Source of the DNA: a virus
Lineage: Duplodnaviria > Heunggongvirae > Uroviricota > Caudoviricetes
DNA: 64,000 nucleotides
Strand: one strand, 5' to 3'
Virus record (IMG/VR): IMGVR_UViG_3300020048_006428
Coordinates: 183,178 to 247,177 of that record
The translations under genes were made by a program, and so were the position numbers. Position 1 is the stretch's first letter; every line of letters begins with the position of its first letter. Shown here piece after piece: positions 15,857 to 43,818 of the stretch. Under the pieces are notes generated by a model that saw only the letters and a list, made by a program, of their open reading frames with translations, was not told the DNA's origin and did no database searches.

Positions 15857-16546
15857 TTATAATTTTTCAAAATATATATTATAGTAATATTTAAAGGAAT
15901 ATTGACTTGATGGTTTTTCTTGATAAAACTTAATCCTTATATCTAAATCATTAGCATCAGTTTCAGTTTGTATTTTAGTGAAAAGTGATGTTGAACCTTC
16001 AATACCAGCATCATATATATTTTTATATCTTAATCCTCCAACCGTCAATATATCAATATATTTTATAAACATTTCTACTTTGGTAAATTTATATCTACTT
16101 AATACATTCCTATCAATATATTCATATAATGCAGAATCAACATTATTACTAATTGTCATATTATTTCTAATGCCTTCAAAAGTTCTATATTTTTTCATAG
16201 TAGCAAATAAATAATTCCTTAATATCTTTTGGATTTCTATATCAGCAATCCATTTTGTGTTATTATTCATATCTGTTTCAGTTTGTGATTCATCAATAAA
16301 TAATACGTGATTAATTCCTTTGTCATTTACTGCATCATAAATTATCTGCGGTAAATTTCTTTCTGCATCAAAATCTAATTGTTCCTTTGTACCTAATTGA
16401 TAGAAGATAATATTTTCATTTTTAATATCAATCTTATCTTCTATATTAAGCATCTTTGAACCAAAAAATGAACTTTGTTCAAGCATATTCATTGTTCCAA
16501 ATATTGGCTTATAATCAAATTCAGGGCTTATATATGTTCTTCTCAT
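15857..16546 (-). CDS. hypothetical protein (start overlaps upstream stop, ATGA)
   Basis: ORF; translationally coupled to 16543..20901. Confidence 0.45.
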   Translation of the reverse strand: MRRTYISPEFDYKPIFGTMNMLEQSSFFGSKMLNIEDKIDIKNENIIFYQLGTKEQLDFDAERNLPQIIYDAVNDKGINHVLFIDESQTETDMNNNTKWIADIEIQKILRNYLFATMKKYRTFEGIRNNMTISNNVDSALYEYIDRNVLSRYKFTKVEMFIKYIDILTVGGLRYKNIYDAGIEGSTSLFTKIQTETDANDLDIRIKFYQEKPSSQYSFKYYYNIYFEKL

Positions 16547-19500: not shown

Positions 19501-20901
19501 ATTTAAATTTATAGTTTTTCTATATGTAGGATCTGGACTATTTATATAATATTCAAATTTTTCCAATGATTGTGAAAAAGCATAATCAGTTTTTATATAA
19601 TAAACCCCATCAGTTTTTATTATGTTATGATAAACAGAATCTATTTCAATTAACCAAACATCTGAATCATCATAATTTTCAATTTCAAATACATCATCAT
19701 TATAGAAACTTATTTTATTTAGAGAATCTATTTTTATTAAATTTTTATTAATTTCTGATTGTCTACCTTCTAAGTTAATATTACTTATTATTTTATATTT
19801 AGTTAGATATTCTATATTTGGTTTATCTTCATATGAATTTTTACCAACTTTAACTTTAGTTAGTTTAGTTGCTTGTTCTTCTAAATATTTTTCTATTTTA
19901 TAAAAATCACCACTAATTTCAATATATGGATAATCATTTTTTTTAAAAGATTGTTCAAATGGATCAATATTAGATAGACTATATAAAATATTATTTTTAT
20001 CAATGACTACATCATCAACTACATTTGGTAATAAATAAGGACTAACATATTTTGTCAATTCTAAAGCATCCATATAAAAACCAACATACCTATTTAGCGA
20101 CCATTTTCTAAGTGAACTTGGTGTAGCCGGTGTATCATCAAATAAGAAGCTTAAATTTAATATATTTGGAAAAACAACTTTATTATTTTTATAACCATCA
20201 AATATGAATTTTTCAAATTCATAATATAATTGTTCATACTCTAAAAATGTATCCATCATAAATGATTTTTCACTATATCCACCATCTTCATAATCTATAC
20301 CAATCCATGTTGAAAATTCCAATTTTCTAAAATCCATATAGAATGGTGCATTTGGAAAAGACTTATTTTTTAAGATATTTTTTTCCAACCATTCACCAAG
20401 TTTAGTTTTTCTTGTTAAATCAAATAATTTAACACATTTTAATTTATTTATTATTTCACTATTGAAATTAGACTTATCAATATTCAATAATCCAGGTCCA
20501 TCAATTCTAAATATTATAAAATTGCTTGGTAATCCAGTTTTTGAAATATATAATGGTGCGAAATATTCAAATTCTTCACTATAATCTTTATTTTCAATTA
20601 TATTTCTTGCACCATATTGATATATATCATCATATTGCTTAGAAAAATCAGATGACATATTATCATTATCATTATCATCTTTAATACCGAATGCAATATC
20701 AACTGGTGTATTCTTAAAGAAATGTGGTAATACTTCATCCCAATAATTATCTTTATTAAATTCCATTTTTTTATATTTTGTAGATGATAATTCTGAATTT
20801 GATATTATAGAATCTACATATAAACTGTATGAACCACTAATCAAAATTTTTGCATTAGTGGTTAATCCTACATTAGTTCTTAGTATTGAATGACTTTTCA
20901 T
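16543..20901 (-). CDS. giant N/Y/S/T-rich protein (1452 aa), probable virion/tail fibre-like structural protein
   Basis: intact 4.36-kb ORF; low-complexity N/Y-rich composition; function inferred only. Confidence 0.5.
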   Translation of the reverse strand: MKSHSILRTNVGLTTNAKILISGSYSLYVDSIISNSELSSTKYKKMEFNKDNYWDEVLPHFFKNTPVDIAFGIKDDNDNDNMSSDFSKQYDDIYQYGARNIIENKDYSEEFEYFAPLYISKTGLPSNFIIFRIDGPGLLNIDKSNFNSEIINKLKCVKLFDLTRKTKLGEWLEKNILKNKSFPNAPFYMDFRKLEFSTWIGIDYEDGGYSEKSFMMDTFLEYEQLYYEFEKFIFDGYKNNKVVFPNILNLSFLFDDTPATPSSLRKWSLNRYVGFYMDALELTKYVSPYLLPNVVDDVVIDKNNILYSLSNIDPFEQSFKKNDYPYIEISGDFYKIEKYLEEQATKLTKVKVGKNSYEDKPNIEYLTKYKIISNINLEGRQSEINKNLIKIDSLNKISFYNDDVFEIENYDDSDVWLIEIDSVYHNIIKTDGVYYIKTDYAFSQSLEKFEYYINSPDPTYRKTINLNVDSQNPPKKFAIYRCKFTDIMDFDTNIVETDFSKYEYIKKTQLTQTDETKMYVVNQESKSNPKDYDDFKINDVVVNIPTSSEYTANSETFRIIDNNLSSLWKKNAQRLKWGYQNSISSSDYPYLLNNSFISEDFNRTTNTFDPKPNRQERNLDYFLTINPDSNDYLFHSLHVVDDESIYFTTNKNINNKVVFINISNIGAFSIGDNIQITQDSGYTHPQYNTTAYITDIFYNATDNWCLTTDINFIVVTATNSGVVKNLTKTTFALNRYLNVDYDLDYFSYFFGKKTLFDSGSEIRNVEKWSYFNIGDNTIPNTTLFRGLKFKLYDVNGVKITDDKIDAINIKSNNGYSDYKFAILLSENNYVVNSSTDINIGNVNYGSNYLRWKLIDEWKHDKIYKVSSIVKFNDILYISSTQSQITNPSSYPYNSTDWGLFTDNNIFWSTNIDGSNSTTKNNMFYFGQTVFSLGVIIPPLVYNSGDYYYSSGINGNNFWIPGNTYSIDDVVLYKNKIWKANIETNTAPNNNNFYVDNGNYINNWSESPNSDVIWDIIELWQLEKTYEPLNSMWNSLLFSNGHYVVYNDVVYVTIGFPIRGLEPPLDSNWKRIYSLKPDTNYLYHNSFSDGKNPIIEMNNRLYFCVDNDNPTSISTTLSKRGQPTVINNTPLSTLENGINIYINKKWKNVLVNIYINDNTFSTCIDLGFSNWVVENDNISNTNRDDLYSDIYKKLTANNFMQAINDLENNYDFSDKIRYIIINEDLSLNIYDFNDFKTLEKLPVLLKCDTPDEFLTRIQSNNVDPITLEVSEIKPNKKLDLGNVVSLNQLNYYSDLHLATKIEKRKDNPLKVENYSGLKNNIYNNLYRHSGYYSPIFNKIELFKAPTLEKSGGNYKFDTDLTYFGTIKERIFSKVNRSKNILKLRNNPNIKSIYPMLDEYGYFIKDFFIFKSTWDLNYHIECLEIPQKQESLSNESLVGNIDNNNTNNNNLSQL

Positions 20902-23900
20902 TATCTATTTGATATTAATTGTGTTGGGGTTGAAGCCAATGTTTTCTTAGATATTACTTTTGATCTATTTATTACAAATTTTATAGTAAATATAAATGGT
21001 CTATTATCTGCTTCATTTTCCAAAAGAAATCTAAGCTTTTTAATATGTGTTACTGTTGATTTGGAACTATTTAAATTTATATATTGATAATTCAATCCTG
21101 GCAATGAAGAATCAACCGAATTCATTTTAAAATATATATTTATTGGTATATTTATATCATTTTTATCCCCACCATCTAAATTTTTAATTTTATCAGCATT
21201 TGTTTCTTGAATTTTATCCAATCCTTGAACTTGTGGATGTATTGACGTTAATAATTTAGTTGTTGATGAAACACTTACATTTGTATCTATCCATTTTGTA
21301 GTATCTAATAAAGAATTATTATTACCAACAAATGTTAATATAGATCTACCAGAATAACCAACATTATATTCACTTGATGAAAGAATATTTGTTATTGAAT
21401 TACTCCCTAAATTAACAAATCCATTACCTATATTTTCAGATAATTTTGTAACAGTTGTTTGCTTAACACTGTCATAATTAACTGACCAAAGATATTGATA
21501 ATTATTTTGTGTTTTAGTAGTTCCTGTTGAATTATCTACCACTAATTCATTTTGTTGATTAACCCAAAATACTTGAGGTGTTGCATTATTATATAAATCA
21601 CTATTTGAATCTGAATATGTTCTATTAGATAATAATCCAAGTGGACTTTCAGTTGATTTATTCTTTAATTTCATAAGGAAATCCTTAATAACATAAATAT
21701 TATTTTGATAAACCCTTCCTGTTGGAACACCCGCTGCTGTATAATTATCCAAATAATCTTCACATTCTATATTAAATACGATTTCACTTCCGTTTTTAAC
21801 AATGAATAATTCACTATTTCTAAATATAGACACTTCAAGTTCACCTTTAGCTCTTTTGATTTTTTCTTCAAGTGAAACAATTTTATTTTCAAGTTTTTTC
21901 AAATATTCAAATAAATCTAAAGCTATACCATTTTCATCTTTAAATCCTGATAATATTTTATCTGATTGGTGATGATATGTAACATTATTAACAGTTACCT
22001 GTTCTGACAAATGTTCATCTAATCCTTTTGCAGATAAATCATTCTGAACACTTACTCTTAAATCTTCTTTAGTAGCTTCTTTTAAAATAAAGTCATTTTC
22101 ATTTAAAACATTATTTAAATCATCAGGGAATTCTAAGGTCAATTCATTACTCCAATCTGATTCAACTGGTGATTCTGGCCAACCAACTTCTGATATAGAT
22201 TTTATTCTTATTAAAACCTTTTCACCATATCTTATTGGTATATCCAATTGATTTATATTTGGTGTATCTGCATCTGCAACATCTTCAATTTCCCATGTAT
22301 AAACACCTGTTGTAGCATCAAATGTTCTTTTTCTTGTATCGGTTTTAAATTCATTCCAATTTGATATTGCACCAGTTTTTTGATTAGTATTAGAATCACT
22401 TAAAACAGTTGTTTCAACAGGTGATTCTCTACCATCTTTACTAAGATATTTGTATTGAATTCTAAATTGTACAATTTCTTGTGGTTTAGTTCCTCTAGTA
22501 ATAACTGCTTCAGGAATTGACCAAAATCCACGTATTCTAAATATAGGATTAACTTTTATATTAGGTGACTTAGACATATCCAATATTTCAGAAGTAACTG
22601 ATGATAATAATTTAGATTTACTTTCTTTATTTTTGTTTAATAAATCTAATTCATTTGAAAATTGCTTCTTTTCAGATTCAGATGTAAATCTTTGAACCTT
22701 TAATTGTTTAGTTTTTTCTGATAAAGCATCATATATTTGCTTTATTTCAGATTTAATATTTTTTTGTTGATTATGTTTATTTTTTATTAAATTTGAATCT
22801 GGCGTATCAGTTAAATGTTTGTTAATCTGAACAACCTTAAAGTTATCTATATTTAAAGTAACAAGATTGGGTGTTCCTGCTAAAGTATTTGGTGTTTTTT
22901 TAGCAACTAAATCAGTTAATACTTGACCATAATCATATACAATATCTGTATAAAACTGTTCCATTGATGTTCCAGTATCGGATTCCCTCAAATCATTTGT
23001 CCAAAAACCTAAACCCGAACTCCAATTTTTAGATAATATATAATTTTCCATATTCAAACCCTTTATAAAAAGAATGTTTCTTTCATTGTAGCCAACACTT
23101 ATTAAAACATTCTTATTATATAAAACAGGGGAATATATCTTTAATGTACCTACACCAACTGGTATTGGTTCATTTCCTTCAACTCTTTCAAATCTTAATT
23201 TTGGATTTGAAGATGTATTTGAAATTTCTATTATTTTATATCTTGTAGTAGAAATTGGTGTATTTATAATCAATTCATCGTTTACTTTTAGTTCTATAGC
23301 TTCTTGTGTAATTACACCATTCACAGTAATATTTCTAACATAACTTAAAGTATCTACATAATAAAATAATTTTCTATTTATTGTATCTTCTTCAACTTTT
23401 AAAACTGTAAATGTTCCATCATATTCCAATATATTTGGTTCTAAATCAAATAATTGTTCATCATAATTTGGATTAATTGATTCAATTAATCCTGGTGTAT
23501 TTAGGTGCCATTCTAAATATTCATCTAATGTAAAACCATTTTTATTTTTAAATAAATTATTAAAGCTATTCAATGCAGACTGTCCTAATGGTGTAAAATT
23601 TCCACTTGAATCTTTAGCAAATTCTGGAATATATCTTCTACATAATATTTTTCTAACATTATTTTCAATTTGTGAATTTAAGTCCAATTCAACAAATATC
23701 TGTGGATTTAATAATCCATCAAAAAACCAATTCTTTTTAGTTTTAAATGTTGTTAATTGATTTAAACTACCAATATCATTTGGTTCTCTATTCAAATCAA
23801 CAGTAACTACCTTTTTAAATTTAGATCCATTTGATGGTTGTATTAAAGCACCTGCTTCATTTATACCATAGATTGAATTTATATTGTTATTTAATCTATC

Positions 23901-24095
23901 AATTTCAGATTTTAAATATCCGAAAGATGGTAATGTAAATTGTTTTATTACCCCACTTTGATCAGCAATATTAACTGTAACAGATGGATCTGATGTTGTT
24001 ACTAAATTATTTATTTTTGATAATAAATCAACAATATTATTATTAAAATTAATAACTTGTTCTGCTACTGTTACAAATGAATTTTGACCTGCCAT
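20901..24095 (-). CDS. giant protein (1064 aa) with central coiled-coil, probable structural protein
   Basis: intact 3.2-kb ORF; stop overlaps start of 1452-aa gene. Confidence 0.5.
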   Translation of the reverse strand: MAGQNSFVTVAEQVINFNNNIVDLLSKINNLVTTSDPSVTVNIADQSGVIKQFTLPSFGYLKSEIDRLNNNINSIYGINEAGALIQPSNGSKFKKVVTVDLNREPNDIGSLNQLTTFKTKKNWFFDGLLNPQIFVELDLNSQIENNVRKILCRRYIPEFAKDSSGNFTPLGQSALNSFNNLFKNKNGFTLDEYLEWHLNTPGLIESINPNYDEQLFDLEPNILEYDGTFTVLKVEEDTINRKLFYYVDTLSYVRNITVNGVITQEAIELKVNDELIINTPISTTRYKIIEISNTSSNPKLRFERVEGNEPIPVGVGTLKIYSPVLYNKNVLISVGYNERNILFIKGLNMENYILSKNWSSGLGFWTNDLRESDTGTSMEQFYTDIVYDYGQVLTDLVAKKTPNTLAGTPNLVTLNIDNFKVVQINKHLTDTPDSNLIKNKHNQQKNIKSEIKQIYDALSEKTKQLKVQRFTSESEKKQFSNELDLLNKNKESKSKLLSSVTSEILDMSKSPNIKVNPIFRIRGFWSIPEAVITRGTKPQEIVQFRIQYKYLSKDGRESPVETTVLSDSNTNQKTGAISNWNEFKTDTRKRTFDATTGVYTWEIEDVADADTPNINQLDIPIRYGEKVLIRIKSISEVGWPESPVESDWSNELTLEFPDDLNNVLNENDFILKEATKEDLRVSVQNDLSAKGLDEHLSEQVTVNNVTYHHQSDKILSGFKDENGIALDLFEYLKKLENKIVSLEEKIKRAKGELEVSIFRNSELFIVKNGSEIVFNIECEDYLDNYTAAGVPTGRVYQNNIYVIKDFLMKLKNKSTESPLGLLSNRTYSDSNSDLYNNATPQVFWVNQQNELVVDNSTGTTKTQNNYQYLWSVNYDSVKQTTVTKLSENIGNGFVNLGSNSITNILSSSEYNVGYSGRSILTFVGNNNSLLDTTKWIDTNVSVSSTTKLLTSIHPQVQGLDKIQETNADKIKNLDGGDKNDINIPINIYFKMNSVDSSLPGLNYQYINLNSSKSTVTHIKKLRFLLENEADNRPFIFTIKFVINRSKVISKKTLASTPTQLISNR

Positions 24096-24213
24096 TATAT
24101 ATAAACTTGTTTTTCTTATATATTAAATTTTTAACTTTTCTAAAAATATATTTTTTTATTTAAAATGTTTTACTTATATTTGTGTAAGTTTTTGTGTAAA
24201 ATTTAAAAAAAAA

Positions 24214-24651
24214 ATGACAATTGAAGAAATTTGTACATATTATGGTATAGAAAATTATACAATTAATCCTGATTATTCTATTAATGTAGATGGTAATGTT
24301 GATTTCAGATATAAATATCTAACTAAACTTCCCTTAAAATTTAATAAAGTAATTGGTTCATTCTTTTGTTATGAAAATTTACTAACCACTTTAGAAGGCG
24401 CGCCTAATTATGTCGGTGGATATTTTTCTTGTACTAATAATAAATTAACATCATTAGAAGGATGTCCCAAAGAAATTCATGGAGATTTTTATTGTAATGA
24501 TAATAATCTAATCAGTTTAGAGGGTACTAATTATATAGGTAAGGATTTTTATTGTATTGATAATCCTTTACCACAAGAAATACTTGATAATCCAAAAGCA
24601 GAAATATCTCGTTTAAATCGTGAAAAAAAATTAAAATATTTATTAGAATAA
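24214..24651 (+). CDS. LRR-like repeat protein, paralogue of 7747
   Basis: MTIEEICTYY..; repeats NKLTSLEGCPKEIHGDFYCNDNNLISLEG; ends NPLPQEILDNPKAEISRLNREKK. Confidence 0.5.
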   Translation: MTIEEICTYYGIENYTINPDYSINVDGNVDFRYKYLTKLPLKFNKVIGSFFCYENLLTTLEGAPNYVGGYFSCTNNKLTSLEGCPKEIHGDFYCNDNNLISLEGTNYIGKDFYCIDNPLPQEILDNPKAEISRLNREKKLKYLLE

Positions 24652-32822: not shown

Positions 32823-32896
32823 GATCCTGTAGCGTAATTGGGTAACGCAAATTGCTTTTAACAATTTAGATGCAAGTTCAAATCTTGCCAGGATCA
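32823..32896 (+). tRNA. tRNA-Lys (anticodon TTT)
   Basis: acceptor gatcctg/caggatc, T-loop gcaagttcaaatcttgc, anticodon loop cttttaa. Confidence 0.6.
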
Positions 32897-32919
32897 CAAA
32901 AATATTAAATTTTAAAAAT

Positions 32920-32996
32920 GGTGATGTAGCTGAATTGGTCTAGCACCTGATTGAAGATTAGGGATTATGTGGGTTCAAATCCCATCGTCACCACCA
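32920..32996 (+). tRNA. tRNA-Phe (GAA), CCA encoded
   Basis: acceptor ggtgatg/cgtcacc, anticodon loop ttgaaga, gggttcaaatccc T-arm, 3' acca. Confidence 0.6.
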
Positions 32997-33004
32997 ATAA
33001 ATAA

Positions 33005-33086
33005 GGAAGAGTACACGCTGGAATGTGGGGCTGTTTTGAAAACAGTTAAGTCTTACGATTTGAGGGTTCGAGTCCCTCTTCTTCCT
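33005..33086 (+). tRNA. tRNA-Ser (TGA), long variable arm
   Basis: acceptor ggaagag/ttcttcc, anticodon loop tttgaaa, T-arm gagggttcgagtccctc. Confidence 0.5.
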
Positions 33087-33097
33087 CAAATTACATT

Positions 33098-33169
33098 TTG
33101 TATGAACCCAAATGGCGAGGGACAATATTGTGAATATTGGTTTAGCGAGTTCGATCCTCGTCATACAAG
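33098..33169 (+). tRNA. tRNA with anticodon GTG (His-like but no G-1)
   Basis: acceptor ttgtatg/catacaa, anticodon stem caata/tattg loop ttgtgaa, T-arm gcgagttcgatcctcgt. Confidence 0.4.
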
Positions 33170-33180
33170 CAAAATTATAT

Positions 33181-33268
33181 GGAAGCGTAGCATAATGGTA
33201 ATGCAGCAGTCTTGAAAACTGCCGTGTCGTGTAAAAGCGGCTTGTGAGTTCGAATCTCACCGCTTCTT
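33181..33268 (+). tRNA. tRNA-Ser (TGA), long variable arm
   Basis: anticodon stem gcagt/actgc loop cttgaaa; T-arm gtgagttcgaatctcac. Confidence 0.5.
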
Positions 33269-33275
33269 CTAAAAT

Positions 33276-33363
33276 GGAAGATTGACAGAATGGTATTGTG
33301 CTGTCCTGCTAAGACAAGGCTATCGGTAACACCGGTACATAGGTTCGAATCCTATATCTTCCG
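33276..33363 (+). tRNA. tRNA-Ser (GCT), long variable arm
   Basis: acceptor ggaagat/atcttcc perfect; anticodon loop ctgctaa; T-arm ataggttcgaatcctat. Confidence 0.5.
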
Positions 33364-33372
33364 CAAAATTTT

Positions 33373-33448
33373 GGTGATGTAGCTGAATGGTCTAGCACCT
33401 GATTGAAGATCAGGGATTATGTGGGTTCAAGTCCCACCATCACCACCA
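33373..33448 (+). tRNA. tRNA-Phe (GAA), CCA encoded, second copy
   Basis: acceptor ggtgatg/catcacc; anticodon stem cctga/tcagg loop ttgaaga; 3' acca. Confidence 0.6.
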
Positions 33449-33451
33449 AAT

Positions 33452-33524
33452 AGGGATATAGTTCAATGGTTTAGAATAATCGGTTCCAACCCGATTGATG
33501 TGGGTTCGAATCCTACTGTCCCTG
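33452..33524 (+). tRNA. tRNA-Trp (CCA)
   Basis: anticodon stem atcgg/ccgat loop ttccaac; T-arm gtgggttcgaatcctac; acceptor agggata/tgtccct. Confidence 0.6.
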
Positions 33525-33708
33525 CAAACTTTTTTAAAATTTAAAAACATTTAGAAAAATAAAGTAACAAATATATGGAATGTCCAAAATGTAAAAATGA
33601 TGAAAATCTACATTATAATTTAGATTATTCTAAAAAAGAATTACCCATAATTGATTCTTTGTAATGAATGTGGTGAATTATTTGAATGTAAAGAAGAAAA
33701 GTAAACAT

Positions 33709-33781
33709 GGTGTGTGTAGCTCAGAGGCAGAGCATTCGGTTGTGATTCGAAATGTCGGGATATCGTAATTCCTCATGCACC
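33709..33781 (+). tRNA. tRNA-His (GTG) with G-1:C73
   Basis: D-arm tagctcagaggcagagca; anticodon stem ttcgg/tcgaa loop ttgtgat; extra 5' G pairing with discriminator C; T-loop unusual. Confidence 0.45.
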
Positions 33782-33799
33782 CAAAAAAATTATACAATT

Positions 33800-33873
33800 G
33801 GCACTATACCCGTAAAGGCATCCGGAATTGATTCTTGCTCAAAATTATGTAGGTTCGACTCCTACTAGTGTCA
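33800..33873 (+). tRNA. tRNA-like, possibly Lys (CTT)
   Basis: acceptor ggcacta/tagtgtc; T-arm gtaggttcgactcctac; anticodon loop ttcttgc; D-stem imperfect. Confidence 0.3.
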
Positions 33874-34253
33874 CACAAACTAAAAAAATATATATGATAA
33901 TCCACAAGCACGAAAATTCTGATAGTATGTCAGAATATGAATATAAAGATTTAGAAGCACTTGATATAGATGAAATCTGGTATAAATATAATTGTGGTAG
34001 CTATGAAGGTAGTGGTCAACTAATTGCAAGAAAGGCGATTTGTTTTCACATCATGATATGGGGCATTGTTCTTGTTATGGTGGTGTTGAAAGATTTGAAT
34101 TTAATGGTAGACCTTTAGATGAATTAATATCTTATCTAAAGAAAAATCAAGAATATTATTATAATGAAATAATGGAAGTTTTGAGTTTTATGAAAGTTTA
34201 TATTAGAAATTTAAATAATTAGGAAGATAAACTGTTTTGGTGAACAGTCACGA

Positions 34254-34808
34254 TTGGAAATCGTTGAGTACGTAGTTATGTATCAGTTTCGATTACTGTA
34301 TCTTCCGCTATATATGATGTCATTTGATGAATTTTGGGAATGTTTTGATGAAGCATTTAATGATCCAATCCAAATAAAGTGGATTGATAAACCTTATGAA
34401 TACATAGGGTTATTTACTTTGAATAATAAAGTCTATAATATTTATACTATAAATAAAGGTGATAATATTTGGACTTTTAAATTTTATGTTTATTTAGATG
34501 GTAAATTATCACCTAATCTAACAAATGATTATAAAAATATGTTTAGGGTTTTACCAACAATTAAACAAGGATTTATTGATCTTATAAATGAAAAAAATCC
34601 AGATGGTATAATATTTGGTGCTTTAGATGAATCAGAAGTAAGAAAGAAACTATATAATAGTTTTTCTATTGATATATCAAAGCAATTTGATTATGAATAT
34701 ACATCAAAAGAAAAAGATAATAAGAAAATTTATATCTTATATAAACCAAATATAAATAAAGAAATACTTTTTAATAAAATAATTCAAATTACAACTGATG
34801 AAATATGA
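34254..34808 (+). CDS. hypothetical protein
   Basis: ORF after tRNA cluster. Confidence 0.4.
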   Translation: MEIVEYVVMYQFRLLYLPLYMMSFDEFWECFDEAFNDPIQIKWIDKPYEYIGLFTLNNKVYNIYTINKGDNIWTFKFYVYLDGKLSPNLTNDYKNMFRVLPTIKQGFIDLINEKNPDGIIFGALDESEVRKKLYNSFSIDISKQFDYEYTSKEKDNKKIYILYKPNINKEILFNKIIQITTDEI

Positions 34809-35026
34809 AAAAGAAAGACAATATAGAAATTCAAAAAGAATTTGATGACAAGGTTAAAAATATCAAAAAGCGAAAGCGTTCTTTAGATAAATTAACCGAT
34901 CCTTTTTTAAAGAAGAAAATTAAAAAAGATTTAAATAATGAATATCGTTCATCCAAACGTTCTGAAAAAAATGAAATAAAACAATGGATGAAAGATCAAA
35001 TAAACAAAGACGATGAAACAATATGA
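34805..35026 (+). CDS. small lysine-rich hypothetical protein
   Basis: ORF overlapping neighbours by ATGA. Confidence 0.35.
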   Translation: MKKKDNIEIQKEFDDKVKNIKKRKRSLDKLTDPFLKKKIKKDLNNEYRSSKRSEKNEIKQWMKDQINKDDETI

Positions 35027-35663
35027 TAAAATAGAGTATTATAATAAAATTCCATTTGGATTAGATTGTATTGCTTTTGATAAATTAGATGGTTCAAATT
35101 TAAGATTTGAATGGGGTGCTAAAAAAGGTTGGTATAAATTTGGAACTAGAAATGTAATGATTGATAGGACTAATGAGCAATTTGGAATTGGAATTGATAT
35201 TTTTTTAAATAAATATGGTGAAAAATTAGATAATATATTCAAAACTAAGTATAAAAAAGTACTTAGTTTTGTAGTTTTTTGTGAATTTTATGGTGATAAT
35301 TCTTTTGCAGGGCAACATCTTGAATCAGATTCAAAAGATGTTGTTCTTTTTGATGTTAATCAATATCAAAAGGGAATTATTGATCCATTTGAATTTGTTG
35401 ATAATTTTGGTGAATTAGGTATACCAAAAATTATTTATAAAGGTGATTTCAATGAAGAACTTGTATCTGATATAAAAAATAATAAATACAACTTATCCGA
35501 AGGTGTAATTATAAAAGGTATAAAAAAGACAAAGAAATCAAGTGAAGTTTTTATGGCTAAAATAAAAACAAAAGAATGGTTGAATAAAGTAAAAGATAAA
35601 TTTGGGGAGAATTATCTATTGGATGAATTAAATGGTGATCAAAATTTAATAAACGAATATTAA
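35013..35663 (+). CDS. RNA ligase (Rnl2-type nucleotidyltransferase)
   Basis: motif I DKLDGSN, motif III FCEFYG, motif IV EGVIIKG. Confidence 0.6.
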   Translation: MKQYDKIEYYNKIPFGLDCIAFDKLDGSNLRFEWGAKKGWYKFGTRNVMIDRTNEQFGIGIDIFLNKYGEKLDNIFKTKYKKVLSFVVFCEFYGDNSFAGQHLESDSKDVVLFDVNQYQKGIIDPFEFVDNFGELGIPKIIYKGDFNEELVSDIKNNKYNLSEGVIIKGIKKTKKSSEVFMAKIKTKEWLNKVKDKFGENYLLDELNGDQNLINEY

Positions 35664-35664
35664 A

Positions 35665-36378
35665 ATGAATACAAAGAAAAGATTTAAAAATCTAAGGTGT
35701 ATATCTCCGGAATATCAAAGAATACCACACTTTAACAAAGAAATATCTAATATGACTTTTGATGATATCGAATTGGATATACCAATTCAATTCCCATTTG
35801 AATGTTGGATTATGGAAAAAGTTGATGGTGCTAATATGGGTGTATCTTGGATTAATAGTGCTATATTAAGGAATAGAAACAATATTCTTAAAAAAGGATA
35901 TATTGAAAAAGACACACCAGCTAAATTGCAATTTAGACCAGCTTGGAATTGGATAAATGAACATAATAAAGATATTCAATTTATATCTAAAGAATGTCAT
36001 TCACCAGTAACAATATATGGGGAATGGCTTTATGCTAAACATTCAATAGAATATGATAAATTACCTGATTATTTTTTAGCTTATGATATATGGGTTGTTG
36101 AAGATATAAATTTCTTAGCACCTGATAAAGTTGAAGAGTTGTTAAAACAAACAAATATATCATATATCAAACCAATTAAAACTGTTTTAAATTCTATTGA
36201 TGATATAATTCAATTTTCTGAAATGCAATCTGATTTCAGAAATGGTATAGTTGAAGGGATAGTTGTTAAAACAGCAGATGGTAGATTCTTAAAAGATACT
36301 TGGAAAGTAGTAAATAAATATTTTAAAAGAACTGATGATTTCCATATTGAATTAATTAAAAACAAGTTGAAGAAATGA
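35665..36378 (+). CDS. RNA ligase-like nucleotidyltransferase, second tandem copy
   Basis: motif I EKVDGAN, III IYGEWL, IV EGIVVKTADG. Confidence 0.55.
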   Translation: MNTKKRFKNLRCISPEYQRIPHFNKEISNMTFDDIELDIPIQFPFECWIMEKVDGANMGVSWINSAILRNRNNILKKGYIEKDTPAKLQFRPAWNWINEHNKDIQFISKECHSPVTIYGEWLYAKHSIEYDKLPDYFLAYDIWVVEDINFLAPDKVEELLKQTNISYIKPIKTVLNSIDDIIQFSEMQSDFRNGIVEGIVVKTADGRFLKDTWKVVNKYFKRTDDFHIELIKNKLKK

Positions 36379-36993: not shown

Positions 36994-37446
36994 ATGATTA
37001 AAAAATTTACAAGTTTTGTAAAGGAAAATATAGATATCTATAAGTTTAAAATTAAAAAAGTCGAAGATACATTTTCTTTATTAGGTTATTTTGATGGTGA
37101 TTTAGCAGGCAGAATAGATATAACAATTTTATCAGATGCTTATACATACGAATTTGTAGATATAATGTCAGAAGATAAATATGATAGTATATTTGAAACT
37201 AGAAATGTTGCACATTTAGAAAATTTGGTAGTAGATGAATATTACCAAAATTCTGGATTGGGTAAAAAATTAATAGAATTAGCTTTTAAAGAACTTAAAA
37301 GAAGAAATATAAAAGAAATATATCTAAATGCTTATCCAAAAGGCAAAGGTTTAGATTTAACTGATTTAGTAGAATTTTATAAGAAAAGTGGTTTTAATAT
37401 TATCTTAAATCAAGGCGGTAATGTATTAATGTATTCTAAAATATAG
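36994..37446 (+). CDS. GNAT family N-acetyltransferase
   Basis: motif A VVDEYYQNSGLGKKLIELAFKELKRRNIKEIYL. Confidence 0.5.
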   Translation: MIKKFTSFVKENIDIYKFKIKKVEDTFSLLGYFDGDLAGRIDITILSDAYTYEFVDIMSEDKYDSIFETRNVAHLENLVVDEYYQNSGLGKKLIELAFKELKRRNIKEIYLNAYPKGKGLDLTDLVEFYKKSGFNIILNQGGNVLMYSKI

Positions 37447-39764: not shown

Positions 39765-39804
39765 AAAGCGAACTTTTTTATATATACAATAAAAAAGTTC
39801 GCTT
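39765..39804 (+). terminator. terminator hairpin (14-bp stem)
   Basis: aagcgaactttttt ... aaaaaagttcgctt. Confidence 0.55.
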
Positions 39805-40614
39805 ATGTATAATTTATATTATTTGAAATCTACGCTTGATGATAAAATTTATGTTGGTATAACCAATAATCCGGAACGTAGATATTATGAACACATCCAC
39901 TACACAGTTGAAAAAAATCACTACAATGGAAATTGGATAAGAAAGACACTTAAAAATGGTGGTGAAATAAAAATGGAAGTTGTTTTATCCAATTTAACAA
40001 AAAAAGCAGCAATTCAATTAGAAATTAGATTAATTGAAATGTTAAAAAAACTAACACCTAAATATATTACTAATACAGCACAAGGGGGTTATGGATTCAA
40101 TCACAAAGGAATACCACATTCAGAAGAACATAAAAAAGCTTTAGAAAAAGCCCAACCACATAAAGTTAGAATTCCAAAAGATATACTCTATGATTTATAT
40201 GTAAATAAAAAATTATCAAAGAAGAAAATAGGTAAAATTTATAATTGTGGACCTACAACTATTGATAGAAGATTAATTGAATATGGTATACAAGCTAGAA
40301 CAACAATTAATTATAAAGTTAGCTATAAATTAGATAAGGATGAAATATTAGATATGTTCATAAATAAACAAATTAGTATATCTGAAATAGCAAATATATT
40401 TAATATTGGTGATAATGGAATTCGGTCTTTATTAAAAAGGGAAGGTATAGACACTGGATTAAATAAAAACAAATTAAAATATGATAGAATAAAAATCAAA
40501 GAAAGATATTTAATTCTATTAAATGAAAACAAAAAGAAAAAAGAAATATATGATATTATAACAAAAGAATTCAATTTAAAAGATAGATATTCTATATCAA
40601 AATGTGTTAGATAA
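39805..40614 (+). CDS. GIY-YIG endonuclease-like protein
   Basis: YNLYYLKSTLDDKIYVGITNNPERRYYEH. Confidence 0.55.
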   Translation: MYNLYYLKSTLDDKIYVGITNNPERRYYEHIHYTVEKNHYNGNWIRKTLKNGGEIKMEVVLSNLTKKAAIQLEIRLIEMLKKLTPKYITNTAQGGYGFNHKGIPHSEEHKKALEKAQPHKVRIPKDILYDLYVNKKLSKKKIGKIYNCGPTTIDRRLIEYGIQARTTINYKVSYKLDKDEILDMFINKQISISEIANIFNIGDNGIRSLLKREGIDTGLNKNKLKYDRIKIKERYLILLNENKKKKEIYDIITKEFNLKDRYSISKCVR

Positions 40615-40677: not shown

Positions 40678-41433
40678 ATGACATTTTTAGAAGCAGCAAC
40701 ATATACACTAATACAAAATGGTAATCAACCAATGTCATCAAATGAAATATGGGATTATATAAAACAAAATAATTTATACAAAACAAATGGTAAAACCCCC
40801 TGGGCAACACTCAGTACTATTTTATTAAAACATTCAGATAATAGTAAAGTAAATGGTAAATATAAAGAAATAATACTAACAATTGTATCAAAAAATCCTA
40901 TCAAATATATATTATTAAACTTTAACACACCAACCAATTTAATAGAAGATACAGAAGATACAGAAGATATAGAAGAAGAACTAACTGTTCTAACTGAAAA
41001 AGTTCTTTTATATCAAATAACATCAAAAGAATTGGGTTGGAAAAAATTATCAGTTTATAATAATAATGAAAATATAGAATATGAAATTTCTGATTGTGAA
41101 GAATATACATATATTATGGAAGATAAAGCACACGCTACCATAAAAATAGGTAAAACAAAGAACGATCCTGAATTAAGATTGAATCAGTTAAAAACTGGAA
41201 ACCCATCAATATCATTATTACATATTTTCCCATCATCACAATATTGCGAAAGTGAATTACACGAAAAATTTAATGATTTTCAAAAAGACTTAGAATGGTT
41301 CTTTTATACAAAAGGACTTAAAAACTTTATGAATGATGAATTGAAGAAATATAAATATATTATCAGTTCATATAATATGAAAATGGAACTGGATAAAATA
41401 GAAAAAGAAATGTTGGAAAATATTTCTTTTTAA
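40678..41433 (+). CDS. HARE-HTH + T5orf172 (MUG113/GIY-YIG-like) domain protein
   Basis: N-terminus MTFLEAATYTLIQNGNQPMSSNEIWDYI; C-terminus ATIKIGKTKNDPELRLNQLKTGNP..ESELHEKF. Confidence 0.5.
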   Translation: MTFLEAATYTLIQNGNQPMSSNEIWDYIKQNNLYKTNGKTPWATLSTILLKHSDNSKVNGKYKEIILTIVSKNPIKYILLNFNTPTNLIEDTEDTEDIEEELTVLTEKVLLYQITSKELGWKKLSVYNNNENIEYEISDCEEYTYIMEDKAHATIKIGKTKNDPELRLNQLKTGNPSISLLHIFPSSQYCESELHEKFNDFQKDLEWFFYTKGLKNFMNDELKKYKYIISSYNMKMELDKIEKEMLENISF

Positions 41434-41620
41434 TTTGCGCCAACTTAATTATTTAAACCAATATAAAAATCTAAAGATTTGAATTGTAAAAACCTACATG
41501 TATTCTGTGATAAACTATACAAAAAATGGAATGATAATTATTCAGAAGAATGTATAATAACTGATTTGACAGATTTAAGAGGTATTATACATTCAGAATC
41601 TCACTAAAATCTTAAAAATT

Positions 41621-41860
41621 ATGGAAAATAAATTTGAAGAAAAACTTAGACTTGGTTATGAAGAATATCTTAAACTACCAAAAGCAGAATGCACTGGTGT
41701 AAACAGCGAAGCCGAACTATATAAAAATAAATGGTATATTATTATGGGTAGGTCTATTGTTCACCCACATCCACATAGACACTATACATTTTTAGAGTTC
41801 GTATATTGGTGTGGAAAGAACGAAAAACTATACAACAGATTCTTAAAATCCGAAAAATAA
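41621..41860 (+). CDS. small hypothetical protein
   Basis: ORF. Confidence 0.3.
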   Translation: MENKFEEKLRLGYEEYLKLPKAECTGVNSEAELYKNKWYIIMGRSIVHPHPHRHYTFLEFVYWCGKNEKLYNRFLKSEK

Positions 41861-41871
41861 ATTAAAAAATT

Positions 41872-42173
41872 ATGAAAATAGAAAGAATTTTAATGAATAA
41901 TATAAACAAAGATATGTTAAAAGAGTATATCAACACTAAATATGCAGATAAATATAATGTGATTGATATTAAATCAATTGTTCCTTATAAGTTTCTTTAT
42001 AAGGAAGGATTTTTTGATACTATTCAGATAGAATGGAATGGTTATTGGGTTATAGAGATGGTAGTTGGGTTTATCATAACGATAGAACAATTCAATTTAA
42101 TTTATCTTCTTATCAAGAATGGTTGGCTGATATTAGAAATAAAAATTTAGAAGAATTACTAAGTAATATATGA
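41872..42173 (+). pseudogene. mosaic array gene 1, apparent -1 frameshift after IEWNGYW
   Basis: frame A gives IEWNGYW then junk to 42150; -1 frame gives YRDGSWVYHNDRTIQFNLSSYQEWLADIRNKNLEELL matching family C-terminus, stop 42171-42173. Confidence 0.4.
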
Positions 42174-42454
42174 TAAACAAGTATATGTTAAAAGAGTATA
42201 TCAATACTGAATTTGCAGATGTATATAATTTGATTGATATTAAATCAATTGCTATTTATACAAAAGTATTTGGTGGTAATATAATAGCTGATATTATTCA
42301 GATAGAGTGGGTTGGTTGGTGGAGTAATTATAATGGGACTTGGATTTATAGTGATAATAGAACAAATCAATTTAATTTAGATTTATATAAAGAATGGTTG
42401 GTTGATATTAGAGATAAAAAATTAGAAGAATTATTGGATTATACCTTAGATTAA
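42170..42454 (+). CDS. mosaic array gene 2 (IEW..W / NRTNQFNLDLYKEWLVDIRDKKLEELL family)
   Basis: ORF; C-terminal 215 nt identical to gene 3. Confidence 0.5.
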   Translation: MINKYMLKEYINTEFADVYNLIDIKSIAIYTKVFGGNIIADIIQIEWVGWWSNYNGTWIYSDNRTNQFNLDLYKEWLVDIRDKKLEELLDYTLD

Positions 42455-42555
42455 TTTTTATGATAATAGACAAGGATAAATTAAAAGAGTATATCCATAC
42501 AAAATATGGACATAAATATCGTGTGGTTGAAATTCATACAATATCCATTCGTAAG
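42341..42555 (+). repeat. 215-nt direct repeat (1 mismatch) with 42691-42905, period 350 nt
   Basis: tggatttatagtgataa(t/a)agaacaaatcaattt ... atatccattcgtaag in both. Confidence 0.8.
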
Positions 42556-42804
42556 GTTACATTTTATTGGGATGAAATAAATCAAGATTCAAGATACTAT
42601 TTAACTGCTAAGAAAAATAGATCTGTTCAAATTGATATGATTAAAATAGAATGGTCTGGTTGTATTAATGAATACTATAATCTAAATACTTGGATTTATA
42701 GTGATAAAAGAACAAATCAATTTAATTTAGATTTATATAAAGAATGGTTGGTTGATATTAGAGATAAAAAATTAGAAGAATTATTGGATTATACCTTAGA
42801 TTAA
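42460..42804 (+). CDS. mosaic array gene 3
   Basis: 5' ~100 nt identical to gene 4, 3' ~120 nt identical to gene 2. Confidence 0.5.
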   Translation: MIIDKDKLKEYIHTKYGHKYRVVEIHTISIRKVTFYWDEINQDSRYYLTAKKNRSVQIDMIKIEWSGCINEYYNLNTWIYSDKRTNQFNLDLYKEWLVDIRDKKLEELLDYTLD

Positions 42805-42809
42805 TTTTT

Positions 42810-43127
42810 ATGATAATAGACAAGGATAAATTAAAAGAGTATATCCATACAAAATATGGACATAAATATCGTGTGGTTGAAATTCATACAATATCCATTC
42901 GTAAGATTGAATATTATGAAGAATCTGTTGATTTTAATGGTATATATGATGTTATTAAGATAGAATGGGCTGGTTGGAAAGTTGTTAGTAAACATACACA
43001 TAATCCAAAATTTAAGGATAATTGGACTTATGTTGTTAATAGATTAAGCCGATTTAAGTTAGAAGATTATCAAGAATGGTTGACTGGTATTAGAGATAAA
43101 AAATTAGAAGAATTATTGGATTATTAA
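42810..43127 (+). CDS. mosaic array gene 4
   Basis: shares 5' module with gene 3, divergent middle. Confidence 0.5.
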   Translation: MIIDKDKLKEYIHTKYGHKYRVVEIHTISIRKIEYYEESVDFNGIYDVIKIEWAGWKVVSKHTHNPKFKDNWTYVVNRLSRFKLEDYQEWLTGIRDKKLEELLDY

Positions 43128-43160: not shown

Positions 43161-43340
43161 ATGGAAAAATTAAACGAATTATTAAATCCAAAAAAGGTTT
43201 TAACAGATGATGAAAAAATTCAATTGTTGAAAAATAAACATCCTGGTAAATATGATGATTTACAAAAACCAACACTTGGTAGCGCATTTAGAAATTGGTC
43301 AGATGAAGATATTCAAGAAGTCTTGGATCTACTTAAATAG
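43161..43340 (+). CDS. small hypothetical protein (59 aa)
   Basis: MEKLNELLNPKKVLTDDEKIQLLKNKHPGKYDDL..; below track cutoff. Confidence 0.3.
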   Translation: MEKLNELLNPKKVLTDDEKIQLLKNKHPGKYDDLQKPTLGSAFRNWSDEDIQEVLDLLK

Positions 43341-43357
43341 ATATTAAAAAAACAATA

Positions 43358-43391
43358 TAAACAATCGTCAATTATATGGCGATTGTTTTTT
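43358..43391 (+). terminator. terminator hairpin
   Basis: aaacaatcgtcaattatatggcgattgtttttt. Confidence 0.5.
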
Positions 43392-43426: not shown

Positions 43427-43618
43427 ATGGACTTTTTATTTTTACAATTTTATATAAAGAAAAAATACAACCAATCGGTTGATGAATATTTTTCAGTTGG
43501 TAAACAAAGTGTTTCTGATTGGAGAAGATCTTCTAAAATACCACCACAAAGACTTTTAGAATTTCTTGAAAAAGAAGGATCAATGGATCCAAAAGAATTA
43601 ATATTTAAAATTTATTAA
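43427..43618 (+). CDS. small XRE-like HTH protein, tandem copy 1
   Basis: MDFLFLQFYIKKKYNQSVDEYFSVGKQSVSDWRRSSKIPPQRLLEF. Confidence 0.4.
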   Translation: MDFLFLQFYIKKKYNQSVDEYFSVGKQSVSDWRRSSKIPPQRLLEFLEKEGSMDPKELIFKIY

Positions 43619-43620
43619 CT

Positions 43621-43818
43621 ATGGACTTTTTATTTTTACAGTTTTATATAAAGAAGAAATACAACCAATCAATTGATGAATATTTTAGTATAGGAAAACA
43701 AAGTACTTCTGATTGGAAGGTAGCTAATAAAATACCACCCCAAAGAATATTAGAATTCTATGACAAAGAAGGTTCTATTGATATCCTTATTTTATTCAAG
43801 AAATTATATAATTTATAA
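43621..43818 (+). CDS. small XRE-like HTH protein, tandem copy 2
   Basis: first 20 aa identical to 43427 ORF. Confidence 0.4.
   Translation: MDFLFLQFYIKKKYNQSIDEYFSIGKQSTSDWKVANKIPPQRILEFYDKEGSIDILILFKKLYNL

What the first reader, a model, noticed from the sequence alone, without database searches (positions are those of the whole stretch)
41872..43127. Tandem array of four mosaic mini-genes with 215-nt near-perfect repeats and one frameshifted member
The four ORFs are 92-115 aa each and share a W-rich core (IEW.G.W) and a C-terminal NRTNQFNLDLYKEWLVDIRDKKLEELL module. Genes 3 and 4 share an identical 5' module, and genes 2 and 3 share an identical 3' module; the repeat is 215 nt with one mismatch, at 42341-42555 and 42691-42905, period 350 nt. 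Gene 1 needs a -1 frameshift after IEWNGYW to reach its family C-terminus. Such module-shuffled, recently recombining arrays are typical of rapidly evolving specificity or immunity functions, such as superinfection exclusion, decoy or anti-defence families.
Basis: seen in the sequence. Interest (0 to 1): 0.6.

Follow-up and report, generated by a model that had tools for sequence, protein, structure and literature searches.

The report
Recombining four-gene family in huge phage
A very large uncultured phage carries four side-by-side copies (one broken) of a rare small protein of unknown function. The copies are still swapping pieces with each other, which is a real but fairly ordinary way for big viruses to diversify accessory genes.

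Summary
Four co-oriented paralogues occupy 41872-43127. A 218-nt repeat (42338-42555 / 42688-42905, one mismatch, period 350) spans the 3' end of one gene, a 5-nt spacer and the 5' end of the next. Gene 1 carries a 1-nt deletion.

The repeat is not an assembly artefact. A second assembly breaks exactly k=141 nt into each copy. A third assembly is identical over 6.3 kb except for a 10-nt indel patch inside the repeat. A sister phage has the g3 middle and 3' parts joined to a g1-type 5' part, and only two detectable copies. So inter-paralogue gene conversion or unequal crossover is ongoing.

Elsewhere the gene is usually single-copy and under purifying selection (dN/dS 0.05-0.28). Within this array dN/dS is about 0.65-1.5.

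Function is unknown. This is a new member of a known kind of thing, of moderate interest.

The parts
41621..41860 (+). 79-aa ORF immediately upstream (11-nt spacer). It is probably the first gene of the same transcription unit. It is not a family member.
   Evidence: ORF list. No family HMM hit. No Pfam/PHROG/NCBIfam/PADLOC match. A consensus sigma-70-like match, TTGACA-16-TACATT, lies at 41566-41593. That match is weak evidence and may not apply to a Bacteroidota host.
41872..42173 (+). g1, a family member inactivated by a 1-nt deletion. Frame 0 (41872-42150) encodes helix 1, beta1 and beta2 up to IEWNGYW, followed by 33 out-of-frame residues. The family C-terminus is in the -1 frame (42033-42173). 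The homologous start is probably the ATG at 41893 (MNNINKD...).
   Evidence: The sequence is identical in L001 and L010. There is no X XXY YYZ slippery heptamer. P0055 in the sister phage starts MNNINKDMLKEY.
42049..42065 (+). Interval that contains the 1-nt deletion of g1. It holds 17 nt where g2 has 18 nt between the conserved W codons.
   Evidence: Sequence comparison.
42170..42454 (+). g2, the shortest intact member (94 aa). It has a minimal beta1-beta2 hairpin and a net charge of about -6.5.
   Evidence: The AlphaFold model has pLDDT 90.4. Variant B of this gene ends ...LLDY, without the TLD tail.
42460..42804 (+). g3, an intact member with the full-length family architecture (114 aa). 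Its unique middle (42556-42687) is flanked on both sides by the repeat.
   Evidence: The AlphaFold model has pLDDT 92.2. It gives the best HMM score of the four, 134 bits.
42810..43127 (+). g4, an intact member (105 aa) with a long beta2-beta3 loop. Its orthologue in the sister phage is P0004.
42338..42555 (+). Repeat copy 1: the g2 3' module, a 5-nt spacer and the g3 5' module. It is probably the recipient of the conversion.
   Evidence: The direction is inferred from the sister phage: its g3 orthologue keeps the same 3' module but has a different 5' module, and its g4 orthologue keeps the g4 5' module.
42688..42905 (+). Repeat copy 2: the g3 3' module, a 5-nt spacer and the g4 5' module. It is probably the donor.
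42442..42459 (+). Polymorphic patch at the g2|g3 junction. The window (variant A) reads TACCTTAGATTAATTTTT. The ENA 353.9-kb contig (variant B) has a 10-nt deletion plus substitutions (TTAAAAAT).
   Evidence: This is the only difference in 6.3 kb. No donor for the variant B patch exists in the window.
43161..43340 (+). 59-aa ORF downstream, probably the last gene of the unit. It is not a family member.
43359..43388 (+). Intrinsic-terminator-like hairpin (12 pairs followed by a T run) that would end the unit.
   Evidence: 6 terminator-like sites found versus 1.0 expected in this 5-kb stretch.

Best explanation
The locus is a lineage-specific tandem expansion, to four copies, of a rare and undescribed small-protein family. 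The family is carried by AT-rich huge phages related to the Mahaphage clade, whose hosts are predicted to be Bacteroidota.

Shown by the evidence:
- The copies arose by old tandem duplications. They are about 70-80% identical at the nucleotide level.
- They are being partly re-homogenised by inter-paralogue gene conversion or unequal crossover.
- The 218-nt repeat is one such tract. It was most likely copied from the g3|g4 junction onto the g2|g3 junction.
- The tract covers exactly the conserved 3' module, the spacer and the conserved 5' module. It stops where the loop-coding middles, which differ in length, begin.
- The process is ongoing in the population. Strain variants A and B differ only inside the tract, and the sister phage carries a different module combination and fewer copies.
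- One copy (g1) has been lost to a 1-nt deletion.

Inferred, not shown:
- The protein is a soluble cytoplasmic alpha-beta3-alpha scaffold. Its helices, strand cores and an almost invariant C-terminal helix motif (Y-x-x-W-L-x3-R-D-K-K-L-E) are conserved.
- Two loops (beta1-beta2 and beta2-beta3) and the net charge vary between copies.
- The most likely role is an accessory protein that docks through the conserved helix and uses the variable loops to recognise different partners. That would make it a host-interaction or takeover factor whose repertoire is widened by duplication and recombination.
- The near-perfect direct repeats that flank g3 predict frequent precise loss or duplication of g3.
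For: Array and repeat.

The repeat is real:
- Contigs break exactly k=141 nt into each repeat copy, in L001 and L011.
- Variant A is also seen as the 94-aa protein P0057 on a separate 318-kb JGI contig.

Recombination is ongoing:
- L010 is identical over 6328 nt except for the junction patch.
- P0055 is g1-type 5' plus g3 middle and 3'. P0004 is g4-type with a different middle.
- Module identity matrices are incongruent.

Pseudogene: the frameshift is fixed in three assemblies and has no slippery site.

The family is real and functional:
- 24 clusters in the first homologue search and 33 representative clusters in the exhaustive search.
- Single-copy orthologues have dN/dS of 0.05-0.28.
- AlphaFold pLDDT is 90.4 and 92.2, with the same core in both models.

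Conserved scaffold with variable loops. The net charge of the copies ranges from -6.5 to +1.

Accelerated protein divergence inside the array: dN/dS of 0.65-1.5 per module.

Genome context:
- The nearest deposited phages are the 634-735-kb genomes and the Lak phages.
- The record lengths match the four largest genomes reported in PMC7162821.
- None of 42 long ORFs has a Shine-Dalgarno motif.
- The array lies in an accessory region next to two homing-endonuclease-like genes, a pair of RNA ligases and an acetyltransferase.

The same junction-spanning unit of evolution was described for the S. aureus lpl cluster (PMC2568036).
Against: - Nothing bears directly on function. There is no library match, no informative conserved neighbour and no solved structural relative.
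- dN/dS of about 1 with one dead copy fits plain relaxed constraint as well as diversification. No test for positive selection was significant.
- The direction and number of conversion events rest on two proteins from a sister contig whose DNA could not be fetched.
- The tract may end at the variable middles simply because indel heterology blocks branch migration. That would not require selection to keep the middles different.
- Most family members are single-copy, so the expansion is not a property of the family.
Confidence: 0.6

Rival explanations
1. Neutral birth-and-death. The array is an evolutionary by-product of slipped or unequal recombination in a huge, recombination-prone genome. The extra copies are redundant and decaying, and gene conversion is a mechanical result of homology. 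Nothing is being 'diversified' for a purpose.
For: - g1 is already dead.
- The paralogues' dN/dS of about 1 contrasts with 0.05-0.28 in single-copy orthologues.
- Most relatives manage with a single copy.
- g1, g2 and g4 have lost part of the ancestral beta1-beta2 insertion.
- The same region holds other tandem duplicates (family D4).
Against: - g2, g3 and g4 keep intact ORFs and every family-invariant residue.
- Two of them give AlphaFold models with pLDDT above 90.
- The sister phage also keeps at least two intact copies.
- A distant phage independently keeps two copies with dN/dS of 0.39.
Confidence: 0.3
2. Hetero-oligomer reading. The beta-beta-beta-alpha core resembles the COMM domain, an obligate dimer whose paralogues build hetero-oligomeric rings. 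On this reading the paralogues would be subunits of one mixed complex rather than alternative binders.
For: - The order of secondary-structure elements, E-E-E-H, matches.
- COMM domains are three strands plus a helix and dimerise obligately (PMC13392464).
Against: - No member hits a COMM domain model in Pfam at E <= 1.
- The family has an extra N-terminal helix and lacks the HN domain.
- The monomer models are already confident and compact (pTM 0.78-0.80).
- Most phages carry only one copy.
Confidence: 0.07
3. Assembly artefact. The repeat, or the fourth gene, was created by mis-threading or duplicating reads.
For: - Short-read metagenome assemblies can mis-resolve repeats longer than k.
- The number of g3 units cannot be read from a de Bruijn graph.
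Against: - An independent assembly breaks exactly k nt into both copies.
- Its k-mers join copy-specific bases to the shared junction.
- Variant B, whose exact repeats are all shorter than 141 nt, assembles straight through with the same four genes in the same order.
- The unique middle of g3 must be flanked by both modules in any genome that contains it.
Confidence: 0.03
4. The g1 frameshift is programmed (-1 ribosomal frameshifting or transcriptional slippage), so that both a short and a full-length product are made.
For: - The shift is conserved in three assemblies.
- The downstream frame stays open and family-like for 46 codons.
Against: - There is no X XXY YYZ heptamer anywhere in the overlap window.
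- The site is T TGG GTT, with only a GGG run.
- The three assemblies are essentially the same strain, so conservation carries little information.
Confidence: 0.03

Closest known systems
Staphylococcus aureus lpl tandem paralogue cluster (Tsuru & Kobayashi 2008, PMC2568036)
   Same: - Co-oriented tandem paralogues.
- The unit that is conserved and moved spans the 3' region of one ORF, the intergenic spacer and the 5' region of the next ORF.
- The 5' and 3' parts of one ORF have incongruent histories.
- Strains differ by recombination between paralogues.
   Different: - In lpl a central conserved segment is the crossover site and the flanks are variable. Here the middle is variable and the flanks are conserved.
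- This is a phage, not a bacterial genomic island.
- The proteins are unrelated: cytoplasmic and about 100 aa, not lipoproteins.
- Only three genomes or variants are available here, against more than ten for lpl.
Lineage-specific multigene families and gene 'accordions' in large DNA viruses
   Same: - Tandem amplification of a small accessory gene in a very large viral genome.
- Copy number differs between close relatives.
- One copy is decaying.
   Different: - The copies here are old and diverged (70-80% nucleotide identity), not fresh identical amplicons.
- No selective agent or target is known.
COMM domain (COMMD1-10 and prokaryotic COMMD-like proteins; PMC13392464)
   Same: - A three-stranded antiparallel sheet followed by a long C-terminal helix.
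- Several paralogues exist.
   Different: - There is no sequence similarity.
- There is no HN domain, and there is an extra N-terminal helix.
- The oligomeric state is unknown.
Mahaphage-clade huge phages (Al-Shayeb et al. 2020, PMC7162821; LR756502.1, LR745206.1, LR756501.1; Lak phages)
   Same: - A 1063-aa window protein is 63.5% identical over 99% of its length to proteins encoded in the 642-kb and 634-kb genomes.
- Both of those genomes carry one family member.
- The window shares the very low GC content and a tRNA cluster. Absence of Shine-Dalgarno motifs fits the predicted Bacteroidota hosts.
   Different: - Those genomes have a single copy, at a non-syntenic position.
- There is no nucleotide-level similarity to any deposited phage.
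- The window's contig is about 354 kb and may be incomplete.

Membership tests
Tandem paralogue cluster evolving by junction-spanning recombination units (lpl-type) | Co-oriented tandem paralogues with short spacers | tested here: met
   Four + strand genes. Spacers are -4, 5 and 5 nt.
Tandem paralogue cluster evolving by junction-spanning recombination units (lpl-type) | A conserved unit made of a 3' region, the intergenic spacer and the 5' region of the next ORF | tested here: met
   The 218-nt tract 42338-42555 equals 42688-42905 with one mismatch.
Tandem paralogue cluster evolving by junction-spanning recombination units (lpl-type) | Incongruent relationships between the 5' and 3' parts of the same ORFs | tested here: met
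   5' modules: g1-g2 87%, g3-g4 100%, between groups about 72%. 3' modules: g2-g3 99%, all other pairs 74-82%.
Tandem paralogue cluster evolving by junction-spanning recombination units (lpl-type) | Different arrangements among related genomes | tested here: met
   Variant B junction patch. The sister phage's P0055 has a g1-type 5' module, and the sister has only 2 detectable copies. Only proteins were available for the sister, not DNA.
COMM domain (Pfam COMM_domain) | Beta-beta-beta-alpha order of secondary-structure elements | tested here: met
   Models show E19-34, E38-52, E58-69, H70-92 in g2 and E20-36, E55-69, E79-89, H90-112 in g3.
COMM domain (Pfam COMM_domain) | Significant structural superposition on solved COMM domains | tested here: not met
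   [not shown]
COMM domain (Pfam COMM_domain) | Sequence match to the family model | tested here: not met
   No COMM hit at E <= 1 for the window proteins or for any of the 45 aligned members.
COMM domain (Pfam COMM_domain) | Obligate intertwined dimer or ring oligomer | not testable with these tools
   Only monomer prediction was available.
Cystatin-like fold | Significant structural match to cystatins | tested here: not met
   [not shown]
Programmed -1 ribosomal frameshift site | X XXY YYZ slippery heptamer at the frame junction | tested here: not met
   No heptamer was found in frame 0 between 42018 and 42150.
Known anti-phage defence or anti-defence protein families | Match to a curated model (PADLOC, Pfam, PHROGs, NCBIfam) | tested here: not met
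   No significant hit in any library. PADLOC covers defence systems and holds few anti-defence proteins.
Mahaphage clade (for the genome that carries the array) | Placement inside the clade in terminase or capsid phylogenies | not tested
   No terminase or capsid gene was identified in the window. The supporting evidence is one 1063-aa protein at 63.5% identity to the 642-kb and 634-kb genomes, with weaker matches to the 735-kb genome and to Lak phages.

The most novel reading that the evidence does not exclude
The family would be a previously unrecognised compact binding scaffold (alpha-beta3-alpha) specific to huge phages that infect Bacteroidota. Its two hairpin loops would be diversified by duplication plus junction-anchored gene conversion, giving each phage lineage a small, rapidly reshuffled repertoire of binders against variable host targets such as defence proteins or surface and entry factors. 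The copies might assemble as COMM-like homo- or heterodimers through the invariant C-terminal helix.
Probability: 0.15. Interest if true: 0.65.

Novelty: new member of a known kind. Interest (0 to 1): 0.35.

Why it matters
Huge phages carry hundreds of genes with no known relatives, and how they gain and reshape such genes is poorly documented. This locus gives a clean, population-level snapshot of the process:
- old tandem duplicates
- a conversion tract caught at near 100% identity
- a strain variant that differs only inside that tract
- a sister genome with another module combination
- one copy already dead

It also defines a small protein family that is absent from all curated libraries and has a confidently predicted fold with no solved relative. 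The family is a tractable target (about 100 aa, soluble) for structure determination and for binding screens in Bacteroidota phage-host systems.

On present evidence, however, this is an ordinary evolutionary mechanism acting on a gene of unknown function. It is not a new kind of system.

Tried and rejected
Searches that found nothing:
- Nucleotide search of 40-45 kb against deposited phages: no match.
- Pfam, PHROGs, NCBIfam and PADLOC on the four proteins, their neighbours and all 45 aligned family members. Only noise appeared: DUF4828 in 4 of 45 members (best E 0.027) and phrog_4652 in 7 of 45 (best E 0.006, function unknown).
- PDB sequence profile search: nothing.
- Foldseek against BFVD: best E 0.018.
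- AFDB50 was not available.
- IMG/VR and GTDB genome scans with peptide and DNA patterns: no loci. The JGI metagenome scan gave only two distant loci.
- Rfam: only tRNAs in the window, none in the array.
- Search for a donor of the variant B junction patch in the window: none.

Things that could not be obtained:
- The DNA of the sister 68.6-kb contig could not be fetched.
- Its 98-aa gene just upstream of P0055 could not be identified as a family member. Its status is unknown. One search also behaved erratically, returning few candidates.

Tests that led nowhere:
- Neighbours of the single-copy relatives are all uncharacterised. Relatives share no other gene with the window.
- Positive selection: the g2/g3 vs g4 3' module gives dN/dS of about 3, but on about 1 synonymous difference. 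My hand binomial gives p of about 0.15, so I do not claim it.

Rejected readings:
- Programmed frameshifting.
- Assembly artefact.
Full report
**1. Observation**

The window is about 24-25% GC throughout and carries a tRNA cluster at 32.8-34.3 kb. At 41872-43127 four + strand ORFs of 92, 94, 114 and 105 aa follow one another with spacers of -4, 5 and 5 nt.

The near-perfect repeat is real and slightly longer than reported. It is 218 nt, at 42338-42555 versus 42688-42905. There is one mismatch, at 42358 (T/A, Asn/Lys), and the period is 350 nt.

The repeat consists of three parts:
- the last 117 nt of one gene, stop codon included
- the 5-nt spacer
- the first 96 nt of the next gene

So 'g2 and g3 share a 3' module' and 'g3 and g4 share a 5' module' describe a single tract. 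Outside the tract the same gene pairs are 60-68% identical. On that background the runs have chance probabilities of about 1e-24 and 1e-16.

The C-terminus of g1 is in the -1 frame. Restoring one base within 42049-42065 gives a protein that aligns end to end with the others. A family HMM hits the two halves separately.

The family signature is W-x-G.

**2. Not an artefact, and polymorphic**

Three assemblies cover the locus.

- **L001 and L011** are two contigs from ENA assembly ERZ27262919. They are 100% identical to the window. L001 stops at 42499, exactly 141 nt past the copy-specific base 42358. L011 starts at 42765, exactly 141 nt before the end of the repeat at 42905. A k=141 de Bruijn assembler behaves this way at a true repeat. 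The terminal k-mers also join the g2-specific base to the junction sequence.
- **L010** comes from the 353.9-kb contig of ERZ27262918. It is identical to the window over 6328 nt except at the g2|g3 junction. There the window reads GGATTATACCTTAGATTAATTTTTATG and L010 reads GGATTA----------TTAAAAATATG. In L010, g2 therefore ends ...LLDY. This variant B interrupts the repeat into exact pieces shorter than 141 nt, which explains why it assembled straight through.
- **Variant A** also occurs as a 94-aa protein on a separate 318-kb JGI contig.

The g1 frameshift is the same in all three assemblies, so it is an allele and not a read error. All three are essentially one strain, however.

**3. Related genomes**

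*The sister phage.* A syntenic 68.6-kb contig (JGI 3300059473) could be read only through its gene calls and proteins, not its DNA. It has the same neighbours: a pair of RNA ligases, an acetyltransferase, a GIY-YIG gene, and further on genes of 298 and 251 aa, an APS kinase and a helicase.

It carries two detectable family members:
- **P0055** (115 aa) has the same middle and 3' module as g3. Its 5' module is g1-type: MNNINKDMLKEYINTEYADKY.
- **P0004** (99 aa) has the exact 32-residue N-terminus of g4 but a shorter, different beta1-beta2 region.

From this I infer the history. The g4 5' module is ancestral at g4. The g3 3' module is ancestral at g3. The window lineage most simply acquired its repeat by copying the g3|g4 junction onto the g2|g3 junction.

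A 98-aa gene upstream of P0055 could not be shown to belong to the family.

*More distant relatives.*
- Those examined in full carry one copy. These are L002, L005-L009, L012, L013, and the complete 642-kb and 634-kb genomes LR756502.1 and LR745206.1.
- One distant phage (L014-L016) carries two copies, 1 kb apart, among long runs of small genes.

Single stable copies are the rule in the family, but the close relatives do differ in copy number and in module combination.

**4. The protein family**

*Rarity and library searches.* The exhaustive profile search found only 33 representative clusters among 1.84 billion proteins. The first word-indexed search found 24 clusters. No member matches Pfam, PHROGs, NCBIfam, PADLOC or any PDB sequence.

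*Typical sequence.* Members are usually 110-129 aa long and share four conserved segments:
- an N-terminal M-I-I-D-K-D-K-x-K-E-Y-I-N
- a W-x-G-W turn
- G-T-W-x-Y-x-x-N-R
- an almost invariant C-terminal Y-Q-x-W-L-x-D-x-R-D-K-K-L-E

*Predicted fold.* AlphaFold models of g2 (pLDDT 90.4) and g3 (pLDDT 92.2) agree on the core: an N-terminal helix, three long antiparallel strands and a long C-terminal helix. The ancestral beta1-beta2 insertion adds a short helix in g3.

*Where the copies differ.* Variation within the array and across the family is concentrated in the length and sequence of the beta1-beta2 and beta2-beta3 loops. The four copies also differ in net charge, from -6.5 to +1.

*Selection.* Single-copy orthologues are under purifying selection, with dN/dS of 0.05-0.28, so this is a real gene. 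Inside the array dN/dS is 0.65-1.5 per module. That means either relaxed constraint or diversification. No test reached significance.

**5. Genome context**

- The window encodes phage families such as an integrase and a peptidase.
- A 1063-aa window protein is 63.5% identical to proteins encoded in LR756502.1 (642 kb) and LR745206.1 (634 kb). It matches LR756501.1 (735 kb), the Lak phages of Prevotella and several phages of Flavobacteriia more weakly.
- Those record lengths equal the four largest genomes of Al-Shayeb et al. 2020. That paper places them in the Mahaphage clade with predicted Bacteroidetes hosts (PMC7162821).
- None of 42 long ORFs has a Shine-Dalgarno motif. From established knowledge, this fits a Bacteroidota host. 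It also shows that the array's tight packing without Shine-Dalgarno motifs is normal for this genome.
- The array lies in an accessory block, downstream of a GIY-YIG/HTH gene and a HARE-HTH/T5orf172 gene.
- The array is probably co-transcribed with a 79-aa gene and a 59-aa gene, up to a terminator-like hairpin at 43359-43388. This is an inference.
- The adjacent homing-type endonucleases could supply the double-strand breaks that drive conversion. This is speculation.

**6. Mechanism and verdict**

*Shown:* a lineage-specific four-copy expansion, ongoing inter-paralogue gene conversion or unequal crossover with a junction-spanning tract, one pseudogene, and a novel but rare family with a confident fold.

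*Inferred:* a cytoplasmic scaffold that docks through the conserved C-terminal helix and varies two loops, acting in host interaction.

The main rival is neutral birth-and-death of redundant copies. I rejected assembly artefact and programmed frameshifting.

The 218-nt direct repeats that flank g3 predict precise g3 loss or gain in the population. Read mapping can test this.

Overall this is a well-documented example of a known evolutionary process acting on an undescribed gene family. It is of moderate interest, and the function remains open.

Noticed in passing
window 43427-43618 and 43621-43818: A second tandem pair lies 300 nt downstream of the array. Two ORFs of 63 and 65 aa both start MDFLFLQFYIKKKYNQS, and a 192-nt direct repeat between them is 79% identical. 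Hits to HTH and transcription-regulator families are only weak. The sister contig also has two 65-aa genes here.
   Followed up: partly
window 35013-35663 and 35665-36378: Two adjacent RNA-ligase (PF09414) paralogues of 216 and 237 aa, followed by an acetyltransferase at 36994-37446. The arrangement is conserved in the sister contig. The annotation comes from L001, which is 100% identical to the window.
   Followed up: no
window 39805-40614 and 40678-41433: Two homing-endonuclease-like genes sit directly upstream of the array: one GIY-YIG + HTH_7, the other HARE-HTH + T5orf172/MUG113. In the sister contig the second is replaced by an unrelated 219-aa gene. They are a possible source of breaks that stimulate local gene conversion.
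   Followed up: partly
window 32823-34308: tRNA cluster. ARAGORN finds 8 tRNAs (Lys, Phe x2, Ser x4, Trp). Rfam finds 8 as well, but its set includes two extra ones at 33710-33781 and 33800-33873 and misses two of ARAGORN's Ser tRNAs. The region has the highest GC content in the window.
   Followed up: no
whole window: None of 42 long ORFs has a Shine-Dalgarno-like motif upstream, and the leaders are A/T-rich. GC content is 22-32%. This fits a Bacteroidota-type host, as predicted for Mahaphage-clade phages.
   Followed up: partly
window 16543-24095 (- strand): Two giant adjacent ORFs of 1452 and 1064 aa. The 1064-aa ORF matches phrog_29329 (function unknown) and is 63.5% identical to proteins of the 634-kb and 642-kb huge phages. 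It is about 28% identical to Lak megaphage proteins. The 1452-aa ORF has no match in Pfam or PHROGs.
   Followed up: partly
window 13423-14223: A 266-aa ORF with strong tyrosine-integrase PHROG matches (phrog_1, E 4e-42) in what otherwise looks like a huge lytic-type phage genome.
   Followed up: no
window 39766-39804: A long perfect hairpin (16 pairs, AAGCGAACTTTTTTAT...) between the 502-aa gene block and the GIY-YIG gene. The scan scored it as a terminator on the - strand.
   Followed up: no
L014 1-7450 (Logan ERR12387330): A distant AT-rich phage contig made of long uninterrupted runs of same-sized small genes (67-72 aa, then 86-97 aa, then 94-119 aa). This suggests several tandem multigene families. 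Two copies of the family studied here lie at 424-771 and 1741-2082, next to a Cas3-like helicase gene on the opposite strand.
   Followed up: partly
window 7723-8124 and 24127-24648: Two dispersed window ORFs both match the same ORF of the 634-kb phage (L018 73-759, 38-41% identity). This suggests another paralogous family within the window.
   Followed up: no
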